The notes under the pieces are model-generated. The model did no database searches. It saw only the letters and a list, made by a program, of their open reading frames with translations, and had not been told where the DNA came from. DNA of 64,000 nt from Camelus ferus (lineage: Eukaryota): assembly GCF_009834535.1 (NCBI RefSeq), contig NC_045696.1:79238001-79302000 (forward strand). The letters run 5' to 3'. Shown here one piece after another: positions 10,682 through 64,000 of the stretch (positions are counted from its first letter, which is position 1; every line of letters starts with the position of its first letter). The position numbers and the translations under genes were made by a program.

Positions 10682-13600
10682 AGAAAATTTACCTATAGAA
10701 TGTGTACATAGCTTAGAGATCCATTTCTCTATGTGCTTTATTTTCAATAGCCCCTGCTCTCAACTGGTATGTATCTGGAAGATTCCTTTCGCTGGACTCT
10801 AGCAACAGGTAGAGGAAAGGTAACCCCCGGGGTAGACAATTGCAGGTAAAAGCAAAATATGGTGCACAAAGAAGCTTAAACAAGTGCTTGGGCTGTTTAC
10901 TTTTAAGCATTTTCATCATAGAATTCTATCTGTATAATTGTCCTCTAAAGATGAAGTACTATTACACGAGAAGGTGTTTTTTGAAAAACTTATAAATGCA
11001 GAAGGGTTTGTAACCTCAGTAATAGAACTGATGTCATTTACTCATTTTGGAGAAAGAACCTGCCTTGAAGTCCCTAACCTCTTTTGGTGAAGGGTTCCAT
11101 TTAGGACAAAAGGTGTCAAACAAGCCCCCACCACCACCTTTTTTGTATTTTCTTTATTATTACACCAAATACAAGTTGGGAATTCCAAGATCCCATTTCA
11201 GTTAAAAAAAAACAAAAAACCAACTTTGATTTCTTTGAAGAATTATGTTTCACAGTTCTTTTGATATTAAGAAATAAATGAAATTTGATAGAGTCCCAGC
11301 TCAGAGTCCAAATCATCATTTCTGGAAATGTATTGAGACTATGCTTTTTCCCCTTTTCCAGGTTTTCTATGTTCTCTAAACCCAATTCATTATTTATATA
11401 TGACCATACATTTATTGCATATACTCTGGTAAGCTGTCGCAAATACTTCCTAGAAGATGGAAGGATGAAAATGGATGTTCATTGATTATACAAATTACCT
11501 TTCTAAATATTAATATTGTATAAGTTATGGTGAACTATCACTCAGGTAGTATGTGGATGGCACTCATCTGAATGCAGACTAGCCTGGAATTAGGGAGCAG
11601 TTATATATACTTGCTGTGTTCCCTCTAAATATGTTCTCTAGAAAATTAACCCAAATGTAAACTGTAGACTATAAACAATCTGCTTTGGTAAATATTACAT
11701 ATTGGCTCTACAACAGAGAGTCAAATATACACTCTGTGAAACAAATGTTTTTATGATTTTTAAACAGACAAAAGTACAGTATATTTCAAGGGAAAACACT
11801 ATGTAGTGAAGTAATGTTTTTATTTTTGTTAAAAAAGGAATAATGAATATTTCTTAAAGCTTATTTTCATACAAAGTGAAAAACCTTAAATAATTCTAGC
11901 ATAAGTAAATAACATAAGAATAGTTATATATTCTTTTCTGTCAGAAAGATTGTCCCTAATTATGATGACATTAACACAAGAATCCTTTTAAAAACTTTTT
12001 TCTGTTTGAGTGTGTTGTTTATTCTCTAAGTGAACTGACTTTTCTAGAAAAGGTGCTGCTTTTCAAAGCTCAAATGCAAGAAGCTAGCACATATCAGAAC
12101 AGAAATTAATATTTCTCTTGAATCTGTCTCATCTCAGAGATATGCTTCAGCTTTTTAGGAAAGTTTCCAAATGGTGACTTTATTAATATATAAATCAGTT
12201 GAGAAATACAATTTGTCTTGTCTTTGGAATTTTTTTTTCCTAAGAATAACATTTAAATCTATGGTCCTAACTGCATTGTTAGAAAAAATGGGTGGGGATG
12301 TGGGTGATCAATAGTCAGTTTAAGATCATTCACTCCAACCTTGTCTGTTGTAGCAATAGTTGAGCACCTGTAATTCACTTCAAGACAGGTAAAGTATTAA
12401 AAGGCAAATTTAAAGAAATTGCAGAAAAGTTTTCCTTTTGTTTCCCTTTGTCTTTACAAAAGAACAAACTTAGATCTCATAGCCCGTTACACATATAAAG
12501 TCAGTAGTTATTTCTTTTTCTACCATACTGTATATATTTTAATTCAAAGAGTGGTGTTTTAACACTATTTTTAAGTTTATCTAATGCTCAGGAGCATGAA
12601 TCTTTTCACTTACCACATGCTAAGCAGGAAACAGAATAATGCAAATATTAAATGCATAGTAAATGCAGAAACTACTAATCAGTTTAAAATAAATGACAGC
12701 TTTCATATATTACAGTTCCAGTATACAGACTATTTCTCCAGAGGATCCAGGGGCTTTTCTTGCCGCTGCTATTGGGGGCAAAGTATTGGTACCATTAACA
12801 CGACCTAACTTCATTTATGTGGGACTAGACAGGGGGCCTGTGTGTGTACATGGTTAGTACTCTTTACCACCCATATCCTCCACCAGCAGCCACTCTTCCT
12901 ACCTACTATGTATATCCTGAGAAGAGGACAGAGTGAATTAATCTACATGCTTATTGATGATTTTTGATTTACATATGCAGAGTACTCTGCCAGTCTTAAG
13001 GAAAGCAAACCAGATGATATACAGGGTTTTTTTCTAGTTTGGGTTGCAAGGCACCTACTATATTAAGCAGTTAATATGGGCGACAATAAGAGCAGAATGG
13101 CTTCCTGCACGCCAAAGTGAAGGCTATGGAAGCAACAGGAACAGACAGATCAATCTGGCCTTGGCTAGTTTTGTAGGCAGGAAGGTGAACTATGGAGATT
13201 GGGCAAAATGTGGCAAATAAGTGGTTGGAATTGATCCTGTAGTCTGGGAAGAAGTTAGTCTGGATTGTGTGGGAGGGATTTTCCAGAAACTAATAGAAAA
13301 TACAGTTTGCTAAGAAGAGCAACATACTTTAGCAGACCTGGAATGGTAGGGAAAAATCTGGAATGGAGCTCAGAGTTGCTGAGAGCCACTTAGAAATACA
13401 GGCTAGAGGAAAACTAAACAAACTATCATATTTTTAAGGTAATCTGCCTGCTTGTGGTGTGGAATGAAATGGCACATAAATTTGAATCTAGAGGCTGGAA
13501 GGGCAGCTGGAAGACCTGGTAACCCGAGGTGAACAGTTAGTAGTGATACAAATAGAAGGAAACAAATATAAGGGACTTCAAAAACTACACTGTGCCAATT

Positions 13601-13875
13601 AAAATGCTGGAGAGGGTGTGGAGAAAAAGGAACCCTCACTGTTGGAGGGAATGGAAATTGGCGCAGCCACTATGGAGGTCAGTATGGAGGTTCCTTAAAA
13701 AACTAAAAATAGACTTACTATATAATCCAGCAATCTCACTCCTGGGCATATATTTGGAGAAAACTATAATTTGAAAAATAACATGCACCCCAATGATCAT
13801 AGCAGCACTATTTACAATAGCCAAGACATGGAAACAACCTAAATGTTCATCGATAGATGAATGAATAAAGATGCA

Positions 13876-13913
<38 letters not shown>

Positions 13914-14372
13914 GAACATTACTCAGCCATAAAAAAGAGTGAAATAATGTCATTTGCAGCAACACAGATGAACCTAGAGATGATTACATTAAGTGAAGTA
14001 AGTCAGAGAGAAAGACAAATATCATATGATCACTTATATGTGGAATCTAAAAAAATGACATTTTATTTACAAATGCAAAATAGATTCAGACATAGAAAAT
14101 AAACCATGATTACCAAAGTGGAAAGGGTGAGAAAGGGATAAATCAGGAGCTTGGGATTAACAGATAAACATAACTATATGTAAAATAGATCAATGACAAG
14201 GACCTACTGTATAGCACAGGGAACTATACTGAATTTCCTGTAACAACATATAATGGAAAAATATCTGAAAATATATATATTTATATGTATATGTATAACT
14301 GAATTGCTTTGCTGTACATCTAAAACTAACATGGTAAATCAACTACACTTCAATGAAAAATAAAATTAAAAA
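13601..14372 (+). mobile_element. L1 3' fragment (ORF2 C-terminus and 3' UTR), with (AC)17 at 13878-13911
   Basis: aatgctggagagggtgtggagaaa...cagccactatgg...gcactatttacaatagccaagacatggaaacaacctaaatg; A-rich tail. Confidence 0.92.
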
Positions 14373-14942
14373 TATAGAAAAACCAAGAAAAAGGAGAAGA
14401 ATTTAAATGCTTATGGAGTAAGTAGTTCAAGGAAAGACTTTAGAAAGAAAAAAAAAAAAAGCCCTTATAAGACATCCTGGCAGGTGAAATGAAATGACAG
14501 AATGTGCTTACGGAGACGCAGTGAAAGTGGGGGAGGATACCGAGGGTCGTGGCACCAGGTCACGGGAAGGTGGGGGGAGTCTTGCCTCAGTCTCTTATTG
14601 GGGATTCGTCAGAGGGAGGAAAGGATCATTTGAAAGCAAACCAAACCTAAAAGCAAAATCTAAGCCCTCATTGTTTGTTTGGAACAAAGACGAGAAACTG
14701 ACACTGGTTGAAGAGGAGACTCGCTTCTCCATTAAAAAAATCAGTAATGGGACTAACTTACTACATTTGCATAGGCTGTCTCAGGGACAGAGGGCAGGTG
14801 CGGGAGGACCTTCAGCTGTGTCTGAAAAGTACTACTGTTGTGCTCACAATCTATACATCCAAGGGCTAAGAGCTAGTCCCTCTCCTGGGGTTCTTTCCTT
14901 ATGTATTTATATTTCACAAACCAGTTTTGCTCATTTAATTCT

Positions 14943-15071
14943 TTTTTTGGGGGGCTGGGTGGTGGGGGAGGTATTTAGATTGATTGATTGATTGATTGAT
15001 TGACTTAATGGAGATACTGAGGATTGAACCCTGAGGCATGCACTCTACACTGAGCTATACCCTCCCCACCA
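14943..15071 (-). mobile_element. tRNA-derived SINE of camelid (Vic-1-like) type with internal (CAAT)n and perfect 14-bp TSD
   Basis: Minus strand GGGGAGGGTATAGCTCAGTG (A box)...GGTTCAATCC (B box)...TACCTCCCCC, A tail; gctcatttaattct at 14929-14942 and 15072-15085. Confidence 0.85.
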
Positions 15072-16569
15072 GCTCATTTAATTCTGATGGAGAATTTCGC
15101 CTGGTTGATTGTGGGTGGTCTGTTTGTTTGTTTGGATTTTTGTATTTTTACCCCAGCTGCTTGTTTAAATGACTTATTTTGCTTTTAATTATCTTACAAC
15201 TTTTAAAATTATTTCAAAATATTTAATGTCTTTTTAATATTTAACTTAGTAAATGCATGGGGAAAACCAAAAACTACAAGTGCATTAGCATGAGAGGTAT
15301 ATAGAGGCCTTTGCTGAAATCGTTACTCTACATGTCACCACAAATATTCTTTTTCTTAATATCTTGTACTCTTTGGAAATACAACTTATCAAAATTTGTG
15401 CTAGTAGTTTCATTTATTTATTTAATGCCAATCTTCCTACCCACTGTCAGGTCCAGAAAGGAAGAACTGAGTCTGATTTTTTTAAACATTGTGAACACAG
15501 ACCCCTCCAACTACCAGGAACCTATACGGGCACTTATCAAATATTTGTGGAATTAATGAATGAATAAGTGAATTACTGAGTTAAGATGATGGCCTCTGCT
15601 CTGAAAAGGAAATGAAATATCTTTTTGTTTATGGACCAGTTAGTTGCAGTCCTTTGAGAGTCTGAAAATAGTCATTCAGTTCTGGCCCCAGAAAAACAGT
15701 TTGACTAGAAATGAGGAAGATTTTTCTTCCATGTTCTGAGGTCTTATTCCAAACATCACTGATCTTAATGAAATCATAAACCATATTCTCCCAAGTTCCT
15801 CCCAGAATTAATTAAAAAAATTACTATCTTTTTTTTTCTTTAGGACAACTCAGAACTTACATGAGGTTATATTAGTAACACAGAAACTCAAATAAGGACA
15901 CATCATAGTACAGTCATTTATTACAATTTCTTATGTTGGTCAGTCTCTGGAATAATACTGATCATGTTGATCTACACTCCTCAATGCAAGAATTCAACAG
16001 CGCTCTCCATAATGCTGGCTTAATTCCTTCCATTTTCAAAAAGGAAGGGGAAATTGGCAAAATCCCTGTGTTGCTCTTCATATAGAAGACAGATTCCCAC
16101 ACTCACCTGAGTCAGGCAATGGTTAGAGTATCCCCCAATCTTCTACTAGCAAAGTATCTGTCTCATTCCCTGATGTTACCAAGCATCTCACCTGAATGAG
16201 GCACGAGCCATGATTCCTTTGTATCCACAGCAGAATGTCAACTTTGATCAAGGCCTAGGCCTACTCAACACACTTTTTAAAACGCAAATGGAATTATGTC
16301 ACTTATCTGTTCAAGGCCCTATCATTGTTTCTCTTTGTTCCTAGAAGTCCTAAATCTTTAATGAGGTGCCGCGTGGCCTGCTGGCTGTTTCCCGCTTTCC
16401 GCGACACTACTCACCCCTTACTCAGAGCATTGCAGCTGGATTTGCTGATGTCTTTTATCATGCCAAGCTTCTCTCTTCCTCTGGCTTTCACCCAGACTTT
16501 TCTGTCTGCCTCAAACTCGACCTCCTCCTCCCCATCAGAGCAATACCTATTGACTATTCAGAACCACTT

Positions 16570-24351: not shown

Positions 24352-24504
24352 CAAGTACTCCAAGTCGATAGTTGACTGTGATGACGATCACATTGCCATA
24401 ACTTGCCAAGACACTCCCATCATATAAATTTCCAGTCCCTTCCATATATGAGCCACCATGGATATACACCATCACTGGTTTGGGACCCCCACTGTCCCGA
24501 ATAT
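24352..24504 (-). CDS. NLGN1: NLGN1 153-nt coding exon, cholinesterase-like ectodomain: (D)[50 protein letters not shown](G)
   Basis: Acceptor TTTGTTTTTCAG| (AG at 24506-24505), donor CTTG|GTAAGA (GT at 24351-24350), phase 1-1. HGGS and NYRLG carboxylesterase-fold motifs. GGPKP and NLYDGSV match NLGN1 rather than NLGN3/4 (NMIDGSI), from recall. Confidence 0.97.
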
Positions 24505-27500
24505 CTGAAAAACAAATGGTTGGCAATTGTTCTTATCCTCAAAAAAAAAAAACATAATGAAGCAGAGAATATATTTTCCATTTTAGGGACAAAAGGGTAT
24601 GATTTCAACATAGTTCTTTAAATTGCTGCCTTTGTTAAAGTGTTTCTTAAGCAACTCATATTAAAAAGCTACTGTGGAAGAGAGCAATAGATAATCACTG
24701 CTTTCTACCTAAACTTTTGTTAAAATTATAAACTAAATTTCAAAACTTGGACAAATTAGAAGTAGGTGTGAATGTTAGTGCTTTTTTATTGATTCCTGAT
24801 GTGACAGTAGAATGAAAAGAAATAATACAACGATAATGATTCTTAAAATTTCTTTTTACAAATATCACAGATGTCATATGAATCTCACATTGAACCATAA
24901 ACTAAGGACAATGATATCACTGCTATTGTGAATAAAACACTCTGCTTTTTCATTTCTTATTTTTTAATGAAGATTTGTATTGAATACATCATAGTTACAT
25001 TGAATAATTTACGTTCCAATTTGTGAACATAATTACATCACTGTGTTAGAGAAGTTGCAAGAAGTTTCATTTAACTATTCAAGTGCTGTCAGATGAATAT
25101 TTAGGTAGTAGAGTCCACACATCTATATTTCTGTCTTTGTTGCATTTAGGGGACTGTCACATAAATTATATTTTTCAGTTAAGTCCAGGTCATCTGCTCA
25201 TTCCAACCATCTTTACTCGTTGGAAAAAGAAGACAGACTAACATATATTTCACCCTCTTTGTGTAACTATTGTACTTCTAGCCCCACTTTGGCTCTAAGA
25301 GTTTGACATGTAGACATGAAATAGAATATAGCTAAGTCCAAGTGTAAAGTGACAAAGTTCAAGGTGACATTGAAGTGATTTCTACAGTTCTAGATTTTAA
25401 TCAGCAAAATCTAATTTTGCTCTTCTAAGATGCTTTACCCCAATTATGTAGTTTTCAACAAGGATCTAGGAATAATACATAAGAGAAACAGGAAAATTTT
25501 GATTGGTATTAAAAATGTACTAATTTCTAGAGAAAAATGCTAAACTGTATATTGATGAATGTGGTTTTAACTATTATATAGACTAAAATATTATATGTGT
25601 ACATATATTCTATGATTATGAATATATATACATAAAACATTACTATTATGTAATAGTCTATGACTTCTACCCACAATTGAAACAAAATTACATCCAGTGT
25701 ATTATTTTTTTAATGCCAATATTAAAAGTATCATTTAGAAGTATGGCTTTGTTCCTTTGCTTTTGACATTTTTTATCAAACCAATCTCCTACATCATTAT
25801 GATTGAGGTTTCAGCTTTCACAATGGATTAATATGATACAAACTCATCAAAAAAACTGGTGATAATTTAGAGGCTGCTTTACATTTCCTGCAAAAAAAGA
25901 GATGACTAATGTACATAGTTCAATTTTTCTACTATAATAATAAAGTGATTTCTTTCAATGAAAAATCACTTTAAGATCAAGAATTTCAGCTCAACTTGTT
26001 TGTCTATATTTTCAAGTTATGGAAAATAGCTAATGACAGAATTTAGGGACTTTTTTAAAAGTCTACTTTAAATTTTGCTTAATACTTAATACCAATGTAT
26101 ATATTTATCATAATCTGCCCCCTCCTGGAAGGGTGTACTTAAGAAGAGTATCTTATTTGTAAGTGGTGAGAGGAGGACAGTTTGACATAAAAACTATCCA
26201 CCAGACACAGCTACATTTACTGGAAAAACCTAAATTTATTGTCTCTTTAAATCCTTGGGAGGGAAAATGATATTCATTCATTTGTTAAGATCTGGGGACT
26301 TGTGGAGATGTTGGGCTTACAGAGAGAAAACAATCCTTCTGAAATTGTCAAACTCTCCTTAAATGCCTGGTTGCTGCATACAGTTTTAGCTTATTTTTCT
26401 AGTATGCTGGCACTGAAGAAGCAATAATAAATTATTAAACTGAAGTCATTAACTGACTGTTCACAGCAGACACTGTACTCTGCTAATTGTATGCTTGGAG
26501 GTAGCACAGAGGGAGGCTGTTTCAGAATTCTTCTTTAATTAAAATTACATAGAATTACACAGTACCAACTGTGAACAGTAATGAAATCTTGGTAGAACCA
26601 TTCTGTTCACCTGGAAAACAATACAGGCACACACTGAAAAGAACTGCCACATTTTATACCTACCAACAGAATGAAGAGGACATTGTCAGGAAACACTGAA
26701 AATATGACAGTAGATTCTAGGAACTATTCTGAATCGTATCTTGATTTTCCTTTGAAAATTAAACTTGAAAGGATTACTGATCGTTTGGGTTGATTTTAAT
26801 TTCCAATTTGTCCTTCCAGACTTCTCTATGATTTCAACTTTCTCTAAGAACTTAACATATCCAGCAGTTCTTTTCCAGAAAGTTCTCTAAAATTCTAATA
26901 ATGTGTTTTGAACAGTATTTCTTTTTGATTGAAGTAATCCTAAAGTTAATGCTATATGGAGTATTAATTACCAAAATAGGTATAATTTTTATGCATACCA
27001 GCTCTTAATATCGCTAATAAAGTTTTGGACATGCCATATTTGTATTACAAAACAAATGGAATTATTTAATAGTGTTTTATCAGAGTGGTCCACCGTAGAC
27101 TTTACTTTTGATAGTGTTTATCAACCTCGTGTTATCAAATATACTGCTGATAAGGTCTGTCTTAGACCTAACTTTTCTTCTTGGTCTACTGTTCTTGTTG
27201 ATATAAAAATAAATAGAAAATAGTGTAAATATAATAACATAATAATAATATATTACAATAAATGTAAATAGTTCAAATTACAGCTATATTTACTTTGGTT
27301 TTAGAAAGAACCAGACTCTATAAATGAAATTGATACATCAGATAGCCTACTATTGAATACTATCTGCTAATGCCATCATTTTAATAAAAAAATTTGGGGA
27401 GCCGCTATGTCTTTGTGCAAATATATTAGAGGTAGTAACTTATAATAAATGTATTAGAGCCCTATTGTCCCTCTAAACTTTGTCTCACATTTTCCCCTAG

Positions 27501-31281: not shown

Positions 31282-31341
31282 CTTCATCTTCAGCACCGTC
31301 ATTATCACCTAAATCATCTGTCTGTTTCTTTGTAAGGGGAC
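31282..31341 (-). CDS. NLGN1: NLGN1 alternative exon, splice site A insert A2: GPLTKKQTDDLGDNDGAEDE (20 aa)
   Basis: Long pyrimidine tract ending CAATCCTAG| (AG 31343-31342), 60 nt, donor GAAG|GTATTT (GT 31281-31280), phase 1-1, splices in frame to the 153-nt exon (G|AT = Asp). Peptide matches the known acidic A2 insert. Confidence 0.95.
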
Positions 31342-34300
31342 CTAGGATTGAGAACGGAGAAATGGAGGGGGAAAAAAAAGACAATTCAAGAATAAACAAG
31401 ACTGAGGGGAAAAAAATAAATGTAAATACTAAAATTCTCATGGGTTATTTCCAAAAAGAGTGGGGAAGTGCTTACATCAAAGTTGATTATCTGATTTGTT
31501 TAAGGAAAAAAAAAATCCCTTTTCCCAAAATATCTCATAGAAGATTTGGTTTGTGAGTATATCCAGCATAAAAAATACATTATGATTTGAAGCTCAAGCC
31601 ATAAGCAAAGGAAATGATTTTTTTAAAATACCCACTGCATACAAAAAGCAAACAGTTTTATTAGCTGAAAGAACTTAATTTATTCAGCGTCCTTTCTAAT
31701 TTGAATTGGTGACAGCAATAAAGAAAGTAGGCCAAACTCATTCTTTAATTTGGGACAATATAATAGCATTAGGGAAAATAGAGATATGAACATTTTTAGT
31801 TTTTTTTTTTCTTTTCTTTTTTTAAACAACATTAACACCTGGGTTTTGCACATTTTTATATCATACATTTTTCAAAACTGTGACTTTAAAATTACTTGTC
31901 ATTATACAAATGTTTCCCCATGTGTTTTTATTAAATACTAGCTATGTATTTAAGACATCTGCAACCTGCACAGATGTATGAACAGATAATCTTATCACCT
32001 GGTAGGGCAAAGGTACCATTGGTAGAAGTCAGTGTTTGGCAATTAAGGCAGTTACAGAGTCAGGGCTTACATTTTATAATCAATTTAGAAATATAATAGA
32101 ATTAGGCCCTAGTGCAATTTCATGCCCAGTATGGTTATTTATAATGGGATCATGTTTTAGGATAATAATTGTATTAAAATAGTGTGAATGTTTAATAAAT
32201 GTTTTATTATACTTAACAATACTAATTTGCTAGAATAAAGGGGCACACCAAAGGGGAAGTCAAAGGCCATATGAAAGTAATTTTAAGCGTCACATAATTG
32301 ACATATTAAGCACACAAAAATGCAATTGAAGCCCTACATTTCTTTTTGTTTCCACAACCATTTAATTTGTATGGCATTTCATAATCCTCATGCAAAAAAC
32401 AATCATTACAAACACAGGTCACTTAAGTTAAAAGACAGCCAGCCACATAACAGTAAGCAAGAGAATTCTGTCATGCATAAAATAACACTCATAGAAAAAG
32501 GAAGAAAAAAAGGAGGACTGAAAGTCACATGTCGCTTTCAATAATACAAATAGCAAAGAAGCAGGCATTAACTCTAAGCACACTTCATAGGGAAGGATTG
32601 TTAAACATTCTGAGAGATTTCCAAGGCTTTTCAGCGATTACTATGCATTCTGTTTTTAATTCAAAACTACACCTAATACCACAGAACTCAAAGAATAAAA
32701 AACACCATCCCAGAAAACAGAAGGAAAAAATGAGATATAGTGCAGTTATGTTTCATCAACTCAGAGAGATAGCCTTGAAAAATAATAATAACTAGCAAAG
32801 ATCAAAAAATTGGCAATGGAGAAATTGATGATGTAATTTAAGGGACCCATTGACTACTCAACTGTAAGATCATGGTTTCAAGACCATTTCAAATACAGAC
32901 GGAGGAGCTGGACACAGTAAATTAAATGATATATTTTACAATCCTCAAGCAATCATTCCATTAAGAAAAAAACTTAGATGAAAGCAATAGTTTAAGTTAA
33001 TTAGCACTCAGTTACAAGCTCACAAAAATCTACATTTCTTTAGTATGACCCCGTTTAAATGCAGAAAGTACCCTCAGTATTATTTGATGTTCGTACAATG
33101 ATGTTGCTCCATTTCTGAAATAGAAATATTTTTATTTTAAATTTAAATACTGCTATACCAGAACTGTATTTGAGATATTGCCAACTTTAAGTCATCATGT
33201 AAAATATTAGAAAATTTTCAAGCTTTTCATTTTTCTATAATTACCTAAAGTAGTCAACAAATAAACCTCAACAAACATATTTTCTTGCATTTCTATTTTC
33301 AATGATTCTGTGTAGAAATTATGGTTTTATTTGCTGGTTAACGACATGGATTAAATGCAGTGGTAGTTATTTATTGCTGACAAAACCACACCTGTTTTCC
33401 AATTTTAGTTAAATTACTTAATTTGTTTAACTCGGCTATATTAAGAAACCCCTAAAGTGAGCTCAAATTTTTTTTTTCTGAATCCTCAGTTCAATAATTT
33501 TTGGAGACAAATGTAAAACCTACTACAATTAAATTAAATGTGGGGCTTTATAAGATATCTCTCTTGGATGATTAACATGACTCTTTCCCCCACTAGGGTA
33601 CCCAAGGCAAGTTACATGACTTCTTTGGGAAATAGTTCAGGTTCTACAGCCAAGAGACAATAGCTTTACCTACTTTACACTCATTCAGAATTGGTAGCTC
33701 TTGGTCTACATGAGCTGTAACAGTAAAAGAATGTTTTATTAAAACACGATCTCCCACTTATTTGCATGTGGGACTTAATTCTCAGTTGCTATTTGACTCT
33801 GGGTCTGCATAAGTGGATAAGCCATGGAAATGATACTGCGTACTTGAGAGAAATTTTCCATGAAGGCAATGGGTTAACTAGTTTTTTACTACTTTATTTA
33901 TTCTCATCTTCCCTACTCAGGAAGCTGCATGCCTCTTAACTGATGTGGGGTAATGATCACATGCATACACTACATGGAACATGTCCTAATGTAGCAAATC
34001 TGAAGAGTCAGAAGCAGCTACAGATATTGCTTCAGCATCATAAATAGATGAGGACATCATTTTTCTATAGAAGGATTAAGTCACTCTTCCAAATAAAGAA
34101 TTTCACTTATTGATACTATTCAGTAGGTTTTATTTAAAACCTTATTATTGGACGATCTTAAATTGTTCCCACAGTATGAGTTCTGGCAGTATTTTAGTGA
34201 GTCAAGCATAGCTGGGTTTTCTTAACATCAAGAATTGTTTTAGAAATCTGATTTTTTGAAGGTTACCTAGGAAGAAGAGGGATGATAATGGTTTTTCTGC

Positions 34301-39024: not shown

Positions 39025-41650
39025 CATTTAAAGAAGAGCTATACCAGTCCTTTGTAAACTCTTCCCCCCCACCAAAAAAAAAAAAAACCAGAACAGGAGG
39101 GAATGCTTCAAGATCCATGTTACAAGGCCAGCATTATTCTCAATACCAAAGCCAGACAAACACACTACAGGAAAAGAAAATTACAGGTAATATCCCTGAT
39201 GAACATAAATGCAAAATCCTCAACAAAATGTTAGTAAACCAAATTCAACAATACATTAAGAGAATCATACATTATGATTGAATGGGATTTATTCCAAGGT
39301 TTCAAGGGTGGTTCAACATTTACACATCAATGTGACAGCACCACATTAACAAAATGAGGGATAAAAATCATAGGAACATCTCCAGAAATACAGAAAAAGC
39401 ATTTGGAAAAAATCAACATCTTTTCATAATTAAAAAAAGAAACTTTCAACAAATTGTGTATAGAGGGAAGGTATCTCAACCCAGTAACGGTGATATATGA
39501 CAAGTGTGCAGATAACATCATACCCAATGATGAAGTGCTGCAAGCTTTTCCTCTGTGACCAGAAACCAGACAAGGATGCCCACTCTCACCACTTTTACTC
39601 TACATAGTACTGGAAGTCCTATCCAAAACAACTAGGCAAGGAAAAGAAATACAGGTTTCCATCAGATAGAAAGAAGTAAAATTGTCTCTATTGGCAGATA
39701 ATCTGATATTATATACAGAAAACTTTAAGATTCCAAAAACCTACTAAAACTAACAAACTATTTCAGTAAGTTTGCAGGATACAGTATCAATATACAAAAA
39801 ATCAGCTGTGTTTCTATAACAATAAAATATCAGCAAGAAAATTTATGAAAACAATCTCATTTATAATACCATCAAAAAGATTAAAATTCTTAAGAATAGC
39901 TTTAACCAAGGAGGCAAAATATCTGCACACTGAAAATTATGGCATTGCTGAAATTAAAGAGGACACAGATAAATGGAAAGGTATTCCATGTCCATAAATT
40001 AAAAGAAGTAATATTATTAAAATGCCCATACTACCCAAAGTGATCTACAGTTTCAGTGCAATCCCTATCAAAATTCCAGTGACATTTTTCACAGAAATAA
40101 AATAAACAATCCTAAAATTTGTACGGAACTCTAAAGATCCCAAATAGCCCAAACAATTTTAAGAAGAACAAAGCTGGAAGCATCGCGGTTCCTGATTTCA
40201 AACTATATTGCAAAGCTACAGTGATCAAACCAGTATGGTATTTGGTATTAAAAACAGACACATATCTCAATAGACCGGAATAAAGTCTCCAGAAATAAAC
40301 CCATGCATATATGGTCAATTCATTTTCAACAAAGGAGCCAAGAATATACAGTGGGGAAAGGAGAGTTTCTTCAATAAATGGTGTTGGGAAAACTGGACAG
40401 TCATGTGCAGAAGAATGAAACTGGACTCCATCTTACACCATACACAAAAGCAACTCGAAATATTAAAGACTTGAACATTAAACATGAAACATTAAAACTC
40501 CTAGAAGAAAACATAGGGGGTGAGTTCTTTAACATTGGTCTAAGGAATTATTTTTTAGATTTGATGCCAAAAGCAAGACAACAAAAGCAAAAATAAACAA
40601 GTGGCACTACATCAAACTGTAAAACTGTGCAGAAAAAAAAAGAAACCATCAACAAAATCAAAAGGCATCCTATAGAATGAGAGAAAACGTTTGCAAACCA
40701 CATATCCAATAAAGGGTTAATATCTTAAAATATATAAAGCACTCATTCAACTCAGTAGAAAAAAAACAAAAAAACACAATAAAAAATTCAGGACCTGAAT
40801 AGACATTTTTCCAAAGAAGACCTACAAATGATAACCAGGTACAGGGAAAGGTGTTCAGCATCACTAATCATCAGGGAAATGCAAATCAAAACTATAATGA
40901 GATATCATTTCACATCTCTTAGGATATCTCTTATCAAAAAGACAAGAGCTAACACATGCTGGTGAGGATGTAGATGAAAAACCCTGTACACTGTTGGTGG
41001 GAATGTAAACTGGTACAGCCACTATGGAAACAGTACAGAGGTTTCTCAAGTAGTTAAAAATAGAAATACCACATGATTCAGCAATCCCACTTCTGAGTAT
41101 ATAACCAAAGGAAATGAAATCATTATCTCAAAGAGATATCTGTACTCCCATGTTCATAGCAGCATTTATCACAATAGCTAAAGTATGGAAACAACCTAAG
41201 TGTCCACAGTACATTAATACATAAAGAAAATGTAGTGTGTATATACACAATAGAATATTATTCAGCCTTAGGAAAGAAGGAAGTACTCTTATTTACAGTA
41301 ACATGGATAAGCCTGGATGGCATTATGCTAAGTAAAATAAACCAGACAGAGAAAGACAAATAAACAAATACTGCATGGTATCAATTGATATGTGGAATCT
41401 TGAAAAAAAAAAGCCAAACTTATAGAACCAGTAGAAGAATAACTGGTATGTCTGGGAACTGGGGGAAGTAGGAAGTGGTTCGTAAAAGGGTAAAAACCTG
41501 CAGTCATAAGGTAGATAAGGTCTGAGGATCTAATACATTACATGGTGACTATAGTTGATAACACTGTATAACTGAAATTTGCTAAGAGAGTAGAACTTAA
41601 ATGTTCTTACCAAAAAATGGGAGGAAAAACAAAACAAAACAAAAAATAAT
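39025..41650 (+). mobile_element. 5'-truncated L1 (L1MA-like), decayed ORF2 RT to C-terminus plus 3' UTR
   Basis: aatatccctgatgaacataaatgcaaaatcctcaac, caaggatgcccactctcacc, ORF-track fragments such as [24 protein letters not shown]; 3' tgctaagagagtagaacttaaatgttcttacc and A-rich tail; many stops and frameshifts. Confidence 0.93.
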
Positions 41651-55520: not shown

Positions 55521-57360
55521 TATTGTTTATTATATAGACACTCTATTTTGACAGAGTTTTTTTTTTTTTTTCCTTTCTTTAATTGAATTCATCAGCACCT
55601 CTCTGTGTGGTCTACAGTTTACATTGTCTGTTGGCTTGGATATAAAGATAATGGCAATAATGAAATCAGGGGCACACCTTTTTGATTTGTATTCAGTTGA
55701 TATTGTCCAATGAAAGTCTATACCATTGCTACCAAAACTCACCTATCAAACCTCCCTACAAGAGTTATTTTTCAATGAATCATAAAAAAAGATCAGAGAG
55801 GTATTCGCCTCTAGTTTGGTAAAATCAGTCACTCTTGTTGGAGAATCACTCTAGGGTCACACATTATTTTTGTGTATAGAGGAAAATAAACATATAATAG
55901 CCAAGTCATTTACACGGCTTCCAAAGAAATCTGATTTGCCATCAGAGGATGATCAAATGTAAGGAATTTCCTTTTATTCACTTAATTGGTTTTCTTCTCT
56001 TAAATTTAGAGCACTGAAGGTTGACCTACATGGCAGAGTACGAGGACATGGTACTCATCTCCCCCCGTGAACACATCAAAAATATACCAACATGTGGAAA
56101 ACTTCTCACTGAAAAACTCCTGTAGAGCCAAGGCTGTAAGAAAGATCCACATGGAATTGGGTAGAAAGGGAAAAGAAGTGATCAGGTTAGGACCTGTGCC
56201 CCTGAGAGGGGACTCAGAGGAAAACGGTTACAAATGCAGAGATCTGCCCTGGGGAGTGAGTGGTTCGAGCAATATTTTGGGTGCCCCAGTCCTAGGTCCG
56301 ACATGAAAACCAAGTCCCTTTGGCTGATTGGAGGGCCACTAGTATTAACAAGAGGGCTATGAGAAGCCTGGACTCCACTCATGAGAAGTGTGTAAGCATT
56401 GGCTTGCTCCCAGGACAGGACGGAGAGGGCAAATTGAGGACTGCTCCAGTCACTGTCCAGATTCCCATGACCACTCCAGCACGGGCCACCGCCTGAGTCA
56501 AGTGAATGCTCCAGCTCTGCTTGCTTCAATTCACAACTCTGCACTGGAGCAAGAGCTGCCATAAATGGGGAAAGAGGTTGGCCCTTGGCCCTTGGCCCTG
56601 GAACGCAGAGGTGACTCGGACCCAGGGCAGTGTCTAAGTACCGTGGGGCTGCCACTGCTGGCAGTTATGCTGGCAGTGTGGCAGGGGTGGTCAGTATCTC
56701 TGACAGTGGCTGGACTGTCACAGGCTGCACATGGATACACACCGAGCGCCCATGTGGCCCCACTTGCTCCACATCAGGGTAGGGGCAGTGGAGGCCAGAG
56801 AGGGAGTGATTGGAACAGAGACTCTGACGCAGTGGAGGCTGTCATTGCCAGCACCTGCACAGGCAGCACATCAGAGGCAGCCTGGATGTCATCTGTGGCT
56901 GCCTGCTGCAGCCCACTCCCTGTCATGAGCCAAGAGCCTGCATGGGCCCCTCTTGCTCCATTACTGCTCCTGTTTGGGACAAGGTTGCCAATGCTGGGAG
57001 AGAAGAGACCACACATTTAATGGCAACACAGCCAGCTTGGAAGTGGCCCTCACAGCTTCTGTTCCATCAATTTCATATTGGACCCCATCCCCAATATGGA
57101 GGTGATGACCAGTGAGAATAGGGGAAGCCCTGTCTTATACCTAGCTCCAGCTCTAGTACCTCCATTTCCAACCCCATCTCTGAACAAGGTAACAGATGTC
57201 AGCATACCATGAAGAAAGACATGATTTCTGTTCATGTCAAATCCAGCTCTCCCACCAAAAGCACGGGTACATACAGACTGAATAGGGATGCTTCTACATA
57301 AGGACACCCCTTCAAAACTGCAAGAGGCTTCACCTAAATTCATAGAGAAAGTTAAGCAAA

Positions 57361-58210
57361 ATGAAAAGACAGAAATTGTTCTCCACTGAAAGAGCAAGAG
57401 AAAATCCCTGAAAAAATAAATAACAAAACAGATATAAACAATTTACCAGATGAATTCAAACCATGAGTAATAAGAATGCTAACTGAATCAGATAAAAGAA
57501 TGAATGAACAAATGAGAAATTTAACAAGGAACTAGAAGATATAAAAAAGAACTAGTCAGAGCTGAAGAATACATTAACTGAAATAAAACACACTCGAAAG
57601 AATAAACAACAAACTAAGTGATATAGAGGAATGCATAAGTGATCTGGAAAATAGAATAATGAAAATCACCCAATCAGAACAGCAAAAAGAAAAACAAATT
57701 TTGAAAAATGAAAATAGTTTAAAGAGCTCTCTGGATGACACCAACATTCGCTTTATAGGGGTCACAAATGGGGGGGTCAAAAATAAATTGGATAAAGTTA
57801 TAGCTGAAAACTTCCTAAATCTGAAGAAGGAAACACATGTCCAGGTACAAGAAGTACAGAGGGTCCCAAACAAAATAAACCCAAACAGACCTACACCAAA
57901 ACATATCATAATTAAAACGGTAAAAGTTAAGGATAAACAAAGAATTCTATAGTCAGCAAAAGAAAAACAGTTATATAGAAGGGAACCCTCATAGGGCTAT
58001 CAACTGGTTTTTCTGCAGAAATTTTGCAGGTCAGAAGGGAGTGGCATGATATATTCAAAGTGCTGAAAGGAAAAATCTTCAACCTAGGGTACTGTACCCA
58101 GGATGATCATTTAGATTTGAAAGAGAGATAAAGAACTTCTCGGACAAGAAAAAACTGAGTTCATCAATACTAAATCTACCCTAAAAGAAATTTTAAAGGG
58201 TCTTCTCTAA
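57361..58210 (+). pseudogene. L1 ORF1p remnant
   Basis: ATG at 57361; fragment NIRFIGV...IAENFLNLKKETHVQVQEVQRVPNKINPNRPTPKHIIIK; terminal ...KGLL-TAA at 58208-58210; disrupted. Confidence 0.88.
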
Positions 58211-58682
58211 GTGGAAAAGAAAAGGCTATAACACGACATAAGAAACAATGGGAAAGAAAAAAAAAATCCCACTAGGAAAGACATATAGAGCAAGGACTAA
58301 GGATCAACCACTTAAATAAGCTACTACAACGGTTGAAAAACAGAATATTGTAAAAACAGCTGTAACTAGAACAAGCAGTGGAAGGATGAACATGAAGATG
58401 TAAAATACAGCAACAAAAACACAAAATGTAGGGGAGGGGAGTTAAAAAGACAGATCTTTTAGAATGCTTATTAATTTAAAGGACTACAAATTTAAAACAT
58501 GGTTTATAGTTCAACATTTATGAACCCTGTGGTAACCACAAGTCAAAAACATACAATAGATGCACAAAAACAAGAAAGAAAGGAACACAACACCACTATA
58601 GAAAATCATCAAACCACAAGAGAAAAACAAAAAGAAGAAATAGATAGAAAACAATTCCAAAAACAACTAGAAAACAAATAAA

Positions 58683-60990
58683 ATGGCAACTAGTACATAC
58701 TTATCAACAATTACTCTAAATGTGCATGGGCTAAATGCTCCAATCAAAAGCTATAAGGTGGCTAATTTAATTAAAAAAAAAGATCCAACCATATGCTATG
58801 TCACTTAAGATCTAAAGACACACACAGACTGAAAGTGAGGGAGCAGAAAAATATATATCACGCAAACAGAAATTACAAGAAAGCAAGCATAGCAGTATTC
58901 ATATCATTCAAAATAGGCTTTAAAACAAAGTCTATAATAAAAGTCCAAGAAGGGCATGATGTAATGATAAAGGGATCAACACAAGGGAGGATATTATACT
59001 CATTAACATATATGCACCCAATACAGGGGCATCTAAATATATAAAGCAATATTAACAGATATAAATTGAGAAATTAACAATATACAATAATAGTAGTGGA
59101 TTTTAACACCCCACTGACATCAATGGACAGATCATACAGCCATAAAATCAGTAAGAGCAACAGTAGTCTTAAATGATGCAATAAACCTGTTGGACTTAAT
59201 AGATATCTACAAGACGTTCTTTCCAAAAATAGCAGAATACATATTTTTTTCAAGTGCACGTAGAATGTTATCCAGGATAGATCCCATGCTAGGCCACAAA
59301 ATAAGTCTCAGCAAATTTAAGAGGACAGAAATTATATCAAGCAAATTTTCCAAACACAATTGTATGAAACTAGAAATTAATTACAGAAAGAAATATAAGA
59401 AAATAATAAGCAGATGGAGACTAAACAACATGCTAATTTTAAAAAAATGTATAGATGAAGAAATTAGAGAGGAAAATAGAAAAACTTCAAGACGAATGAA
59501 AATAAAAACACAACTTTCCAAAATCTATGGGATGCAGCAAAAGCAGTTCTAAGAGGGAAGTTTACAGTGATACAGGCCTTCATCAAGAAACAAGAAAAGT
59601 CTCAAATAAACATCCTAAATCCACCAAGGAATTAGAAAAAGAAAATTAAAGCTCAAAGTCAGCAGAAGGAAGGAAATAATAAAGACCAGAGAGGAAATAA
59701 AATAGAGACAAAAAAAAAAAAATAGAAAAGATAAATGAAATCAAGAGATGGTTTTTTTTAAAAGATAAACAAAATTTATAACCTTTAATCAGCCAATCAA
59801 GAAAAACAAGGAGAGGACCCAAAGAAACGCAATAAGAAATGAAAGAGGAGAATAACAACTGATACCAGAGATACAAAACATCATAAGAGAAAACTGTGTG
59901 GACAGTTAAATGCCAACAAATCGCACAACATAGAAGAAATGGACAAATTTCTAGAAACACACAAACTGCCAAGACTGAATCAGGAAGGAACAATAAACAG
60001 ACTAATCATTAATACTGAAATTGAATTTGTAATTTAAAAAAATCCCAGAAAACAAAAGTCCAGGACTGGATGGCTTCATAGGGGAATTTTATCAAACATA
60101 TAAAGAAGAGCTAATGCCTATCCTTTTCAGAATATTCCAAAAAGCTGAAGAAGATGGAACATTCTCAAATTCATTTTATGAGACCACTATTGCCTTGATA
60201 CCAAAATCAGACAAATGCACTACAAAAAGTAAATTATGGACCAATATTTCTGGTGAATATAGACAGATGCAAAAATCCTCAACAAAATATGAGCAAATCC
60301 TATCCAACAATACATAAAAAGGGTCATATACCATGATCGAGTGGGATTTATTCCAGGGTTCCAAGGATGATTCAGTATTTGCAAATCAATCAATGAGATA
60401 TACCACATCAACAAAAGAAAGGATACAAATCACATGATATCTCAAATAATGCAGAAAAAACATTTGACAAAATTGAACATCCATTCATGATAAAAAGTCT
60501 CATCAAAATTGGTATAGAGGGAATATATTTCACCATAATAAAGACCACTTATGACAAACCCACAGTTAATATCATCCTCAGTGGTGAAAAGCTGAAAGAC
60601 TTCCCATTAAATTCAGGAACACGGTAAGAATGCCCACTCTTGCCACTTCTGTCTAACTCAGTATTGGAAGTCCCAGCCACAGCATCAGACAAGAAAAGGA
60701 AATAAAAGATATCCAAATTGGAAAACTGGAAGGGAAGTAGTTAAACCGTCACTGTTTGCAGATGACATTATACTATATATAGAAAACCCAAAAGTCTCCC
60801 CCCAAAAGCTATTAGAACTAACAAATGAATTCAGCAAAGTTGCAGGATACAAAATTAATGTACAGAAATTTGTTGCACATAGTAATACTCAGCCATGAAA
60901 AAGAATGAAATTCTGCCATTTGCAACAATGCAGGTGAACCTAGACAGTATTATGCTTAGTGAAGTAAGTCAGACAGAGACAGACAAATAT
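58683..60990 (+). pseudogene. L1 ORF2p remnant (APE endonuclease and RT), internally deleted
   Basis: ATG at 58683 MATSTYLSTITLNVHGLNAPIK; VDFNTPL; SRIDPMLGHK; FADD at 60755-60766; jump to the C-terminus at about 60880. Confidence 0.9.
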
Positions 60991-61344
60991 TGTATGTTGT
61001 CACTTATATGTGGGACCTAAAAAATGAAACAAATGTATATAACAAAACAGAAACAGACTCTCATATATAGAGAACAAACTAATGATTATCAGTGGGGAGA
61101 CGGAAGAGGGGATTGGCAACATAGGGATATGAGATAAAGAGACACAAACTACTATATATAAAATAAATAAGCAACAAGGATACATTGTACAGCACAGGGA
61201 AATATAGCCATTATTTTGTAATAACTTTAAGTGGAGCATCATCTATAAAAAAAACATTGAATCATTTGTTGTATTCCTGACAGTAATATCATATTGTAAA
61301 TCAACTATACATTGACTAAAAAAATACATGGACCAAGGTTGTTG

Positions 61345-61466: not shown

Positions 61467-62791
61467 CTACAAATGTGTAGTTAATTGCAATTGCTGAGGG
61501 ATCATTAACTAACTCAATTTCCCCATACACATTACTTGAGTAATCACAGTTGTATTAGGTTATCAATACTAAACTAGATTAGACCTTATTATTGATGTCA
61601 ATTGATTACATTAACAGTAAGGAAACTAAATCTCTTCAAATAACTAATATTGTTAAATATTAAAATAAGAAAGTAAGAAAGCTGCAGTTACAATTTTTAA
61701 AAAGTCATTATTCCTTTATTAAATCTTATCAAACACTTCATAAAATCCATATTAAATAAATCCCATTCATTGTCATATTGTTTATATTTAGCTTTGTGCC
61801 TCCCTAAAACTTGTTGACTAAGTTTACAAATGACAGGATATTGGAGCTGGAGTGGGAGGAAGAAGGCCACCACACCCCATTCTCTGGTGCAGGCTTCTGA
61901 CCTGAAGCAGCTGGGGGAGAAGAAAGCTTCACTTTGAAAAAATGTGGGATTTTCAGAATTACAATGGTCTGAGCATATATTTTTTGTCTTATGTTTTGTA
62001 ATCTATGTGTGACCCAATAGAGATTTCCTCCAAGGAACAGGAAATAGTCCATCAAGTGGGCTGAAAGGCACAGTAGGAAAAAAAAGAAGTTGCTTTATGA
62101 TTGATATAATAAGTCATTATCTCCATCACTGATTCTACTCAGTAAAGTGGAATTTTATGCCGAAAAAGAACACCATCCAAAAATATGTATGTATAGGAAA
62201 GGAAGAAACAGCATTTTCAAAATCTGTAAGAAATATTAGCATTTACACAGATGACTTAATACAATCAATGTCAAACTGTAAGAATGAATTCAATGTGTTT
62301 GACACATAAAAACCAAAAGCTTTCAAGTATGACAATAATGAGCAATCAGAAAATATTATAAACAAAAGGGTCCATTCATAATAGTAACCAAAACTATAAG
62401 CTACACTTAAAAATATTTAAATGCATTATAGATAAAGGTATTAACTTACTAATGTACAAAAAACAAAAAAAAAAGCAAAGAAAAAGGTGCAGAATGATGT
62501 GTTTAAAATGTTTTAAAATATACATAAAATGCTCTTGCAATATCCTTGAGTAGGCATGTAAATAAACAGAAAATGATGGCAGATATACTGATTACAGTAT
62601 TTTCTGGGAATGGAATGGAGATTGGATAAGAGTTAGGGAGATTCTAACTTTATCTTTAGAGTTTGCATGTTTATAATCACAATATAGTCATTTTTTTGTA
62701 ATTATAATTTTGCAAAGCTAAACTAGAATAAAGAGATTATACAGTTCTGAATGTCTGAATGCACTGATTTGTTAAGAAATATGAATTTAAG

Positions 62792-62995
62792 GGGACTTTA
62801 ATCTTGCTAAAAACTTGGAAGGAGGGGTCCCCTGAAGACCAGCTGCAGCCAAAATGGAAGGGATTATATCAGGTATTAATGAGCACCCCAACTGCCGTTC
62901 AGCTACGAGCAATTGCTAGTTGGGTACATCTGTCCAGAATAAAACCTGTAATTTATAAACCCCAACAGGAGCCAGGAGAGACCTACACTTGCTAG
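62792..62995 (+). pseudogene. Gammaretrovirus-like integrase C-terminal (GPY/F module) remnant
   Basis: LLKTWKEGSPEDQLQPKWKGLYQVLMSTPTAVQLRAIASWVHLSRIKP matches the class I ERV pattern LxPxWxGPYxVxLxTPTAVK...WIHxSRxK. Confidence 0.88.
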
Positions 62996-63386
62996 GCAAT
63001 ACAAGAACTCAGGTATCCTGAGGCGGTGATTACAAATGTTTAACCACGCCTTTGAAGTCTTTTGTCGTTACAGACTGTCAGACTGCTGTTACAAAGGTGC
63101 TTCATCTTTAAGAAAATTCATCAAAAGTCAATAAAAACAGTGGGTTACAGCAGCCCCACATCAGATAATGGCTGTGTGAGGATTCCAGCCCACACCCTCA
63201 GCCCTCAGATGCAAAAACAAAAAGCTGGCCTGCCCCTGAGGCCCCTAGATTAGACATTCAGAGATTTTTTTACTCCCTGATAGGCAGGGTCAACGCCTCT
63301 ACTCAGCCAGTAAGCAGCTCCAGAAGATGGACCTTCGCCCCTCTGCACCCCCATAAGATTATGGGAGTAAAATCTTTGAGGGGGGA

Positions 63387-63862
63387 TAAGACAGGAAGGG
63401 GGCAGGGCACAGCCATTCAAGGAATGCTACAGCAATTAACATCAAAATGGTGAAAGGTTCAACCCCCAGAATGCCTTGAGGCTCAGGATGATGAGAGATT
63501 TTGAGCTTCATTATACGCCCATTGTAATATATTAACATGGTGAATAACACGCCCACAGGCACCAGGGAAGTCCCAAGGCTAGTCACAAAAGGCCACAGAG
63601 TGGGAAATGGCCAACTTCCTGGGAATCCCAGCCCCTTCCCCGGGCTACTTAGACCTGTCCTTCCACTTAATTAGCATATGAAGCCACTAAGCCCATAAAA
63701 ACTATCCACAGGGCACCTCGAGGCTGCCTCTCTCTCTCCATTCAGCCTACACTCTGTCTATGGAGTGTGTACCTATTTTCAATCTGAACACCCAACCCCC
63801 ACACCTCGTGGCCTTTCTCTTGCCTTTCAATGTATCTCCCTGAATAAATCTACCTTTACTCA
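63387..63862 (+). promoter_or_regulatory. ERV1-type 3' LTR, U3-R only (no U5)
   Basis: Starts right after the PPT (taagacagg, likely mutated TG start); TATA-like cataaaaa 63694-63701; poly(A) signal 63843-63848; ends at the cleavage site. Confidence 0.75.
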
Positions 63863-64000
63863 AAAAAGAGAAAATAAAAAAGAAATATGAATTTAAATAT
63901 ATAAGAAAATTTGATTTTGTGTAAATTTGAAAAGCACAATATTTATAACTTTGCTCTATTCTGTTTTTAAACAAAGTACCTTCTAAAATTTTATTACTCA

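What the first reader, a model, noticed from the sequence alone, without database searches (positions are those of the whole stretch)
62774..63896. ERV transcript mobilised in trans by L1: polyadenylated U3-R retrocopy with 17-bp TSD inside NLGN1
Seen: the element begins abruptly inside integrase, runs through the PPT and LTR, stops about 13 nt after AATAAA, has an A-rich tail (63862-63879), and is flanked by an exact 17-bp direct repeat; the reconstructed site reads TT|AAGA. Known: retroviral integrase gives 4-6 bp TSDs and complete U3-R-U5 LTRs, whereas L1 target-primed reverse transcription gives 5' truncation, poly(A), longer TSDs and TT|AAAA-like sites (as for HERV-W processed pseudogenes). 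Inference: this ERV RNA was copied by L1 ORF2p, and it could be one member of an ERV-derived family spreading by this route in this lineage. I cannot tell whether such a family has already been described.
Basis: partly seen in the sequence, partly recalled or inferred. Interest (0 to 1): 0.72.

Follow-up and report, generated by a model that had tools for sequence, protein, structure and literature searches.

The report
L1-copied retrovirus RNA in NLGN1 intron
The tail end of an old endogenous retrovirus RNA was copied into an intron of the NLGN1 gene by the LINE-1 machinery instead of by the virus's own integrase; this is a clean single case of a route well known from primate HERV-W, here seen in a non-primate mammal, and nothing yet shows that the family spread this way often.

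Summary
Observation confirmed. An exact 17-bp direct repeat (62774-62790, 63880-63896) brackets a 1.07-kb piece. The piece starts abruptly inside a gamma-type integrase C-terminus, has no recognisable env, runs through the PPT and U3-R, ends 13 nt after AATAAA and carries an 18-nt A-rich tail. The empty site would read TT|AAGA. It lies antisense to NLGN1, most likely in an intron. The 5' junction is shared by three runs; no empty allele was seen. Best reading: L1 target-primed reverse transcription of an RNA polyadenylated in this LTR, as for HERV-W processed pseudogenes. An orphan 3' transduction cannot be excluded. The family extension is untested, and what is visible leans against it: the family is dominated by ordinary LTRs with an intact U3 start and a U5. 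I found no report of such copies outside primates, in a limited library. New member of a known kind; modest interest.

The parts
62774..62790 (+). 5' copy of the 17-bp target site duplication; preceded by TT, giving TT|AAGA (5'-TCTT/AA-3' on the nicked strand)
   Evidence: TCTT/AA is listed as the L1 endonuclease site of several de novo insertions in PMC4859970 Table 1 (passages)
62791..62995 (+). 5'-truncated end of pol: C-terminal domain of a gamma-type (class I) integrase, open up to a stop at 62993-62995
   Evidence: Pfam MLVIN_C E 5e-12; PDB 2m9u E 5e-9; tblastn of relatives begins at 62789-62804
62996..63377 (+). short 3' internal region with no recognisable env (about 380 nt between integrase and PPT); holds a weak SPRE-core-like motif at 63303-63320
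   Evidence: no Pfam family at its cut-off in 5 of 5 plus-strand frames scanned; one paralogous contig spans 62867-63099 (table 8); motif 14 of 17 with one gap, 23 of 2000 shuffles
63378..63386 (+). polypurine tract
   Evidence: purine run directly before the mapped LTR start
63387..63861 (+). 3' LTR, U3-R only; TATA-like box 63694-63699, poly(A) signal 63843-63848; U5 absent
   Evidence: 114 and 72 contigs (X1), 110 and 83 (X13) carry unrelated flanks before 63389 and 63394; 30, 32 and 14 contigs (X1, X13, X17) continue behind 63863 into one shared non-A sequence, agreement 0.81-0.89 (table 7); motifs
63862..63879 (+). decayed poly(A) tail, 15 A of 18; its first two A are shared with the family, so cleavage falls at or just after the CA at 63861-63862
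63880..63896 (+). 3' copy of the 17-bp target site duplication
24362..24508 (-). internal coding exon of NLGN1 (host gene context; the element is antisense and upstream of it in transcript direction)
   Evidence: identical to neuroligin-1 over 48 residues

Best explanation
A processed copy of a class I (gamma-like) ERV transcript, made by L1. (1) An env-less provirus of an abundant LTR family was transcribed in the germ line or early embryo (inferred). (2) The RNA was cleaved and polyadenylated at the end of R in the 3' LTR, 13-15 nt after AATAAA, so U5 was not in the RNA (U5 in the family and its absence here are shown; the RNA step is inferred). (3) L1 ORF2p bound the poly(A) tail, nicked the bottom strand at TCTT/AA in an NLGN1 intron and primed reverse transcription on the tail (site shown; enzyme inferred from established L1 biology). 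(4) Copying stopped after about 1.07 kb, inside integrase, and top-strand cleavage 17 nt away made the duplication (anatomy shown; order inferred). The copy lacks a 5' LTR, PBS, gag, pro, RT and env, so it cannot move as a retrovirus; no function is indicated. It is probably a sporadic event in a family that spread mainly by integrase.
For: All L1 hallmarks sit at one place: exact 17-bp TSD, A-rich tail, endonuclease-type site, 5' truncation. TSDs of 4-20 bp and YYYY/RR sites are the L1 norm (PMC4859970, passages). The family LTR continues into a shared U5-like sequence exactly where this copy turns into A's (30, 32 and 14 contigs in 3 of 4 runs). The same anatomy defines HERV-W processed pseudogenes (PMC5016936, passages). 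One paralogous contig spans the integrase-to-3' region junction (62867-63099, 19 differences, 19 gap letters), so the env-less layout predates this copy. A short SINE-like insert with an exact 14-bp TSD elsewhere in the window points to the same machinery at work in this lineage.
Against: No empty orthologous site was seen, so the TSD is inferred from the filled site only (no genome; joints list cut, 141 rows not shown). The 5' end is lost, so the promoter that made the RNA is unknown. 17 bp is slightly above the 5-15 bp quoted for HERV-W. TT|RRRR sites are common here (516 on the + strand, 0.8% of positions), so the site alone is weak. The 3' junction was not among the listed contig pieces; only bin means suggest single-copy cover a few bases into 63908-63958.
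Confidence: 0.8

Rival explanations
1. Orphan 3' transduction or read-through RNA: an L1 (in cis) or a host transcript ran into a downstream env-less provirus, used the LTR poly(A) signal, and the copy was truncated so far that no L1 or host sequence remains. Same enzyme, different RNA.
For: Gives identical anatomy; orphan 3' transductions are documented (PMC4859970 Table 1 rows). L1 prefers its own RNA (established knowledge, recalled).
Against: Needs a provirus in sense just downstream of an active L1, and more than 1.1 kb of read-through; nothing in the insert is non-viral. An abundant LTR family supplies its own transcripts: family-like contigs are laid from an RNA library (X17; DNA in that library is not excluded).
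Confidence: 0.13
2. A decayed ordinary provirus: 5' part and U5 deleted later, with a chance repeat and a genomic A-run.
For: The family is abundant and spread by integrase (more than 180 contigs with unrelated flanks at the LTR start in X1); the flanks are AT-rich.
Against: Needs two independent deletions ending exactly at the two copies of a 17-mer, one of them exactly at the poly(A) site, plus an A-run there. Any exact 17-mer repeat arose in only 5 of 2000 simulations.
Confidence: 0.03
3. Capture of ERV RNA or cDNA at a staggered break without the L1 endonuclease (repair-linked insertion, or aberrant retroviral integration).
For: Could also give 5' truncation and a longer duplication (inference).
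Against: Retroviral cDNA has no poly(A) and ends in U5; the tail abuts the nick side and the site fits YYYY/RR.
Confidence: 0.04

Closest known systems
HERV-W (ERV-W) processed pseudogenes of catarrhine primates (PMC5016936, PMC5537654, PMC5775608, PMC6995185; passages read)
   Same: Class I ERV RNA copied by L1: 3' LTR reduced to U3-R, poly(A) tail, TT/AAAA-like site, long TSD; the 5' LTR is often lost (over half of HERV-W pseudogenes); intronic HERV-W copies are mostly antisense (43 of 55).
   Different: Non-primate host and a different ERV family. TSD 17 bp against 5-15 bp. One copy seen, against 135 of 213 HERV-W loci. The family here looks dominated by solo LTRs and ordinary proviruses.
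L1-made processed pseudogenes and orphan 3' transductions in general (PMC4859970, passages)
   Same: TSD of 4-20 bp, poly(A) tail, YYYY/RR site, 5' truncation.
   Different: The cargo is retroviral (integrase end, 3' internal region, U3-R), not a cellular mRNA or L1 flank.
MER41-like ERV1 families of cetartiodactyls, including MER41_Vpa (names from bioRxiv 10.1101/2021.10.01.462810, passages)
   Same: Abundant class I LTR family in a probably camelid genome; LTR ends resemble MER41-type LTRs (both the resemblance and the lineage are recalled, from no call).
   Different: No Dfam or Repbase library was on hand, so the family name is untested; no L1-made copies are mentioned in the passages read.
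SINE-R part of SVA (PMC4859970, passage)
   Same: An ERV 3' internal piece plus right LTR that supplies the poly(A) signal and moves by L1.
   Different: SVA is a composite family of many copies derived from HERV-K; this is a single, purely ERV1 piece with no promoter module.

Membership tests
L1-processed ERV pseudogene (HERV-W type) | 3' LTR is U3-R, U5 missing although the family has one | tested here: met
   table 7: 30, 32 and 14 contigs continue behind 63863 into a shared sequence; the window goes into A's
L1-processed ERV pseudogene (HERV-W type) | poly(A) tail at the cleavage site | tested here: met
   15 A of 18 at 63862-63879, 13 nt after AATAAA
L1-processed ERV pseudogene (HERV-W type) | long TSD, not the 4-6 bp of integrase | tested here: met
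   exact 17 bp; within the 4-20 bp L1 range, slightly above the 5-15 bp given for HERV-W
L1-processed ERV pseudogene (HERV-W type) | TT/AAAA-like insertion motif | tested here: met
   TT|AAGA; TCTT/AA listed for de novo insertions
L1-processed ERV pseudogene (HERV-W type) | 5' end is R-U5 (full-length mRNA) or truncated | tested here: inconclusive
   truncated inside integrase; R-U5 is not there, so the transcript's start is unknown
L1-processed ERV pseudogene (HERV-W type) | orthologous empty site with one copy of the TSD | not testable with these tools
   no genome held; the three runs that cover the left flank all carry the 5' junction
HERV-W / ERV-W group itself | catarrhine host, LTR17/HERV17 sequence, RT clade | not testable with these tools
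   no RT in the copy and no ERV library on hand; the host does not look primate (recalled reading of its SINE and L1 ends); not filed as ERV-W
class I (gamma-like) ERV | MLV-type integrase C-terminal domain | tested here: met
   Pfam PF18697 45.7 bits against a cut-off of 29.2; PDB MLV integrase
ordinary provirus or solo LTR | complete U3-R-U5 LTR with 4-6 bp TSD | tested here: not met
   U5 absent, TSD 17 bp
MER41-like (MER41_Vpa) | nucleotide match to the Repbase/Dfam entry | not testable with these tools
   resemblance recalled only; the name exists
ERV family spreading mainly through L1 | many independent tailed copies with long TSDs | tested here: inconclusive
   none displayed (1112 loose-end rows not shown); no relatives found

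The most novel reading that the evidence does not exclude
This copy is one of many: an env-less subfamily of this ERV1 family was repeatedly mobilised by L1 in a non-primate lineage, making it a second ERV group after HERV-W with systematic L1 mobilisation. Comparing its 3' region and LTR with ERV-W, and with the platyrrhine ERV-W relatives that were not mobilised, would then make the open question of what lets L1 pick an ERV RNA directly testable. Not excluded, because tailed copies scatter their loose ends and would hide among the 1112 rows not shown, and the 3' internal bins are about 2.5 times deeper than the integrase bins in run X1, as 5'-truncated copies (but also pol-less proviruses) would give.
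Probability: 0.12. Interest if true: 0.62.

Novelty: new member of a known kind. Interest (0 to 1): 0.3.

Why it matters
Reviews call HERV-W the sole HERV group mobilised by L1 and say that the determinants are unknown (PMC5537654, passages); close platyrrhine relatives show no such copies (PMC6995185, passages). A clean case from another ERV family in another mammal shows that the route is not tied to ERV-W sequence. As a single copy it is what established L1 biology predicts for any polyadenylated RNA, so it changes little. It would matter if a genome-wide count showed a sizeable tailed fraction. No effect on NLGN1 is indicated: the copy is antisense and about 31 kb from the nearest exon found.

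Tried and rejected
No whole genome is held for the window, so no copy census or ortholog check was possible. Self-BLAST found no second copy of the element in the window. Searches for relatives found nothing: plasmids, two patterns in metagenome contigs, one in viral contigs. Rfam gave no match in the window. A protein search with the non-coding frame over the R end, meant to catch chance ORFs that read on into U5 or poly(A), found no candidate; this is weak evidence. The integrase search gave 5 unnamed relatives and 22 unnamed cluster members, so no family name. Depth ratios (LTR bins 362-15191 times the flank, internal bins 6-288 times) are not copy numbers, as the tool says; I use them only for 'LTR far more abundant than internal'. 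Lack of cover beyond 63959 and at 62990-63040 in run X15 proves nothing (filtered records). RNA-labelled runs X15 and X17 are contigs and cannot show a transcript end or strand; X17 does not cover the left flank, so its family contigs say nothing about this locus. A Bim_N hit below cut-off was dismissed. The SPRE-like motif is not unique in the window (one tile scores higher, two other places equal) and is only a hint. Earlier scan notes held nothing on this element. Pavlicek et al. 2002, the original paper on LINE-made HERV copies, is not held; that it reports rare cases outside HERV-W is my recall only. No supplementary files were opened; those of the camelid TE paper (PMC8605555) and of the bovine MER41 preprint may bear on the family name.

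Full report
Observation. The sequence at 61500-64000 was read directly. An exact 17-nt direct repeat lies at 62774-62790 and 63880-63896 and nowhere else in the window. In 2000 simulations of the last 4 kb with the same dinucleotide make-up, any exact 17-mer repeat appeared 5 times. A window-wide scan for exact repeats with an A-rich run before the second copy gave 5 hits, this one the longest. Before the second copy lie 18 nt with 15 A (63862-63879); AATAAA is at 63843-63848, 13 nt before the tail. The base pair before the first copy gives TT|AAGA.

Anatomy. The frame 62768-62995 matches Pfam MLVIN_C above its cut-off and the MLV integrase C-terminal domain in the PDB, so this is a class I, gamma-like ERV. 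All 22 related proteins found begin to align between 62789 and 62804, 11 of them at 62789-62792, although they carry more residues upstream: the insert starts abruptly within integrase, at the edge of the repeat. Only about 380 nt separate the integrase stop from a polypurine run at 63378-63386, and 5 of 5 plus-strand frames scanned from that stretch have no Pfam family at cut-off, so no env is recognisable. [quoted passage not shown]

Host context. 24362-24508 on the minus strand is identical to neuroligin-1 over 48 residues and scores above neuroligin-2, -3 and -4. A small exon-like frame lies near 31340 on the same strand (motifs recalled). No upstream-exon motif hit between there and the window end, so the element most likely sits in a long intron, antisense to the gene (inference). 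The host looks like a camelid from a SINE at about 14943-15071 and from L1 3' ends; this reading is recalled and no call confirms it.

Family evidence. No genome was held. Of 24 runs listed, 14 hold 0.71-0.77 of the stretch's words under three organism labels. I laid 4 of them, all contigs, at 80% likeness: 4959, 5372, 1239 and 1444 contigs. (i) In X1, 114 and 72 contigs carry unrelated sequence before 63389 and 63394 (agreement 0.38 and 0.54); X13 gives 110 and 83. This maps the LTR start to about 63387 and shows many independent LTRs with an intact U3 start. (ii) Behind 63863, 30 (X1), 32 (X13) and 14 (X17) contigs go on into one shared, non-A, G/T-rich sequence (agreement 0.81-0.89); X15 shows no such row among those listed, but one of its listed contigs aligns to 63861. 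The family LTR therefore does not end at 63862, and this copy switches to A's where the others enter U5, at a CA 13-15 nt after AATAAA. (iii) Single contigs bridge the 5' junction in X1 and X13 (62480-62836, 0 other letters) and X15 (62545-62836, 2 other letters), so the insertion is shared by organisms A and C and the X15 sample. No joint that skips the element is displayed (15 shown, 141 not shown). The 3' junction is not among the listed pieces. (iv) One paralogous contig spans 62867-63099, so the env-less junction exists in another copy; others leave the alignment after 63015 or join at 63082, so the family has structural variants.

Age. Thirteen long paralogous contigs listed for X1 and X13 (all listed pieces except the three from this locus) differ by 374 of 2794 letters, 13.4%; long contigs favour divergent copies, and the commonest class in X1 is 90-95% alike (2095 of 4959). 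At 35 of the 40 listed places the window letter is the minority, at least 3.3% of 1071 nt (304 rows not shown). The family is thus old, tens of millions of years at a recalled mammalian rate; the insertion may be younger than that if its source had already diverged. An exact 17-bp TSD is expected with probability 0.10-0.50 for 6.7-2% divergence per copy, so there is no conflict.

Mechanism. TSDs of 4-20 bp, poly(A) tails, 5' truncation and YYYY/RR nick sites are L1 hallmarks, and TCTT/AA is the recorded site of several de novo insertions (PMC4859970, passages). HERV-W processed pseudogenes are defined by a U3-R 3' LTR, a poly(A) tail, a TT/AAAA motif and a 5-15 bp TSD (PMC5016936, passages). 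I put about 0.93 on L1 target-primed reverse transcription of an RNA polyadenylated in this LTR, split into 0.80 for the ERV's own transcript taken in trans and 0.13 for an orphan transduction or read-through RNA, which one truncated copy cannot tell apart. A decayed provirus with a chance repeat (0.03) or capture at a break (0.04) need several coincidences. Against my reading: the TSD is inferred without an empty site, the nick motif is common in this AT-rich DNA (516 TT|RRRR on the + strand), and the TSD is a little longer than the HERV-W range.

Family extension. Not shown. The only large displayed group of ends at R is the U5 group, and LTR bins are far deeper than internal bins, as expected for a family dominated by solo LTRs made by integrase and recombination (depth is no copy number). 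Tailed copies would end at scattered places and could be among the 1112 loose-end rows not shown, so they are not excluded. The 3' internal bins of X1 average about 2.5 times the integrase bins (my arithmetic, table 2), which fits 5'-truncated copies or pol-less proviruses equally. Five other searches for copies found none, in collections that are not built to hold mammalian genomes.

What is known. HERV-W has 135 processed pseudogenes among 213 loci, is called the sole HERV group so mobilised, with unknown determinants (PMC5537654, passages), and its platyrrhine relatives show none (PMC6995185 and PMC5775608, passages). The camelid TE survey mentions short non-autonomous ERV1 clusters and does not contain the word 'pseudogene' (PMC8605555, passages). 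MER41_Vpa exists as a library name (bioRxiv 10.1101/2021.10.01.462810, passages); that this LTR belongs to it is recalled and untested. PMC10194239 and PMC6298018 (passages) added nothing. In the listings I saw no report of L1-made ERV copies in camelids or other non-primate mammals; the library lacks most subscription papers, including Pavlicek et al. 2002, and Repbase or Dfam notes were not searchable, so this is weak evidence of absence.

Side observation. Of the 35 places where the window letter is the minority, 10 are window A against contig G, and 9 of these fall among 10 consecutive listed places in about 62950-63260 (6 of 200000 permutations; the test is after the fact and the list is cut). 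One of the 9 is in a CpG context and a purine follows in 7 of 9, against a background of 31 of 62. This could be a patch of APOBEC3-type deamination on the minus-strand cDNA, in the source provirus or during insertion (APOBEC3A acts on L1 cDNA: PMC4003774, abstract), or a subfamily difference. It is untested.

Verdict. Real, well supported and of a known kind: an L1-made processed copy of a class I ERV RNA in a non-primate mammal. New member of a known kind, interest 0.30. If a census showed systematic L1 mobilisation of this family (probability about 0.12), interest would be about 0.62.

Noticed in passing
window 62950-63260: Cluster of window-A against family-G differences (9 of 10 consecutive listed places; 6 of 200000 permutations; purine follows in 7 of 9). 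Possible APOBEC3-type patch just upstream of the PPT; the list of places is cut, so this is a lead.
   Followed up: partly
window 63303-63320 (+): Weak SPRE-core-like motif with C-rich stretches on both sides, at the usual place in an ERV 3' region.
   Followed up: partly
window 14929-15085: Short SINE-like insert on the minus strand with a microsatellite and an exact 14-bp TSD; recalled as a camelid-type SINE, not tested.
   Followed up: partly
window about 56000-61320 (+): Old L1 with a GC-rich 5' end, ORF1 and a broken, internally deleted ORF2, ending about 1.45 kb upstream of the element on the same strand; it lies outside the TSD and shows no link to the insertion.
   Followed up: no
window about 31283-31342 (-): Small exon-like frame that resembles an alternatively spliced site-A insert of NLGN1 (identity recalled).
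   Followed up: no
window 62990-63082: Depth dip and contigs that leave or join the alignment here point to a structural breakpoint between family variants, possibly the place where env was lost.
   Followed up: no
window 63416-63424 and 63616-63625 (+): STAT-type motifs (TTC-N3-GAA and TTC-N4-GAA) in U3; MER41-like LTRs are known STAT1 sites, but single short motifs are common by chance.
   Followed up: no
window 13600-14300, 39100-41400, 60200-61200: Several older L1 3' fragments, 67-77% alike to each other.
   Followed up: no
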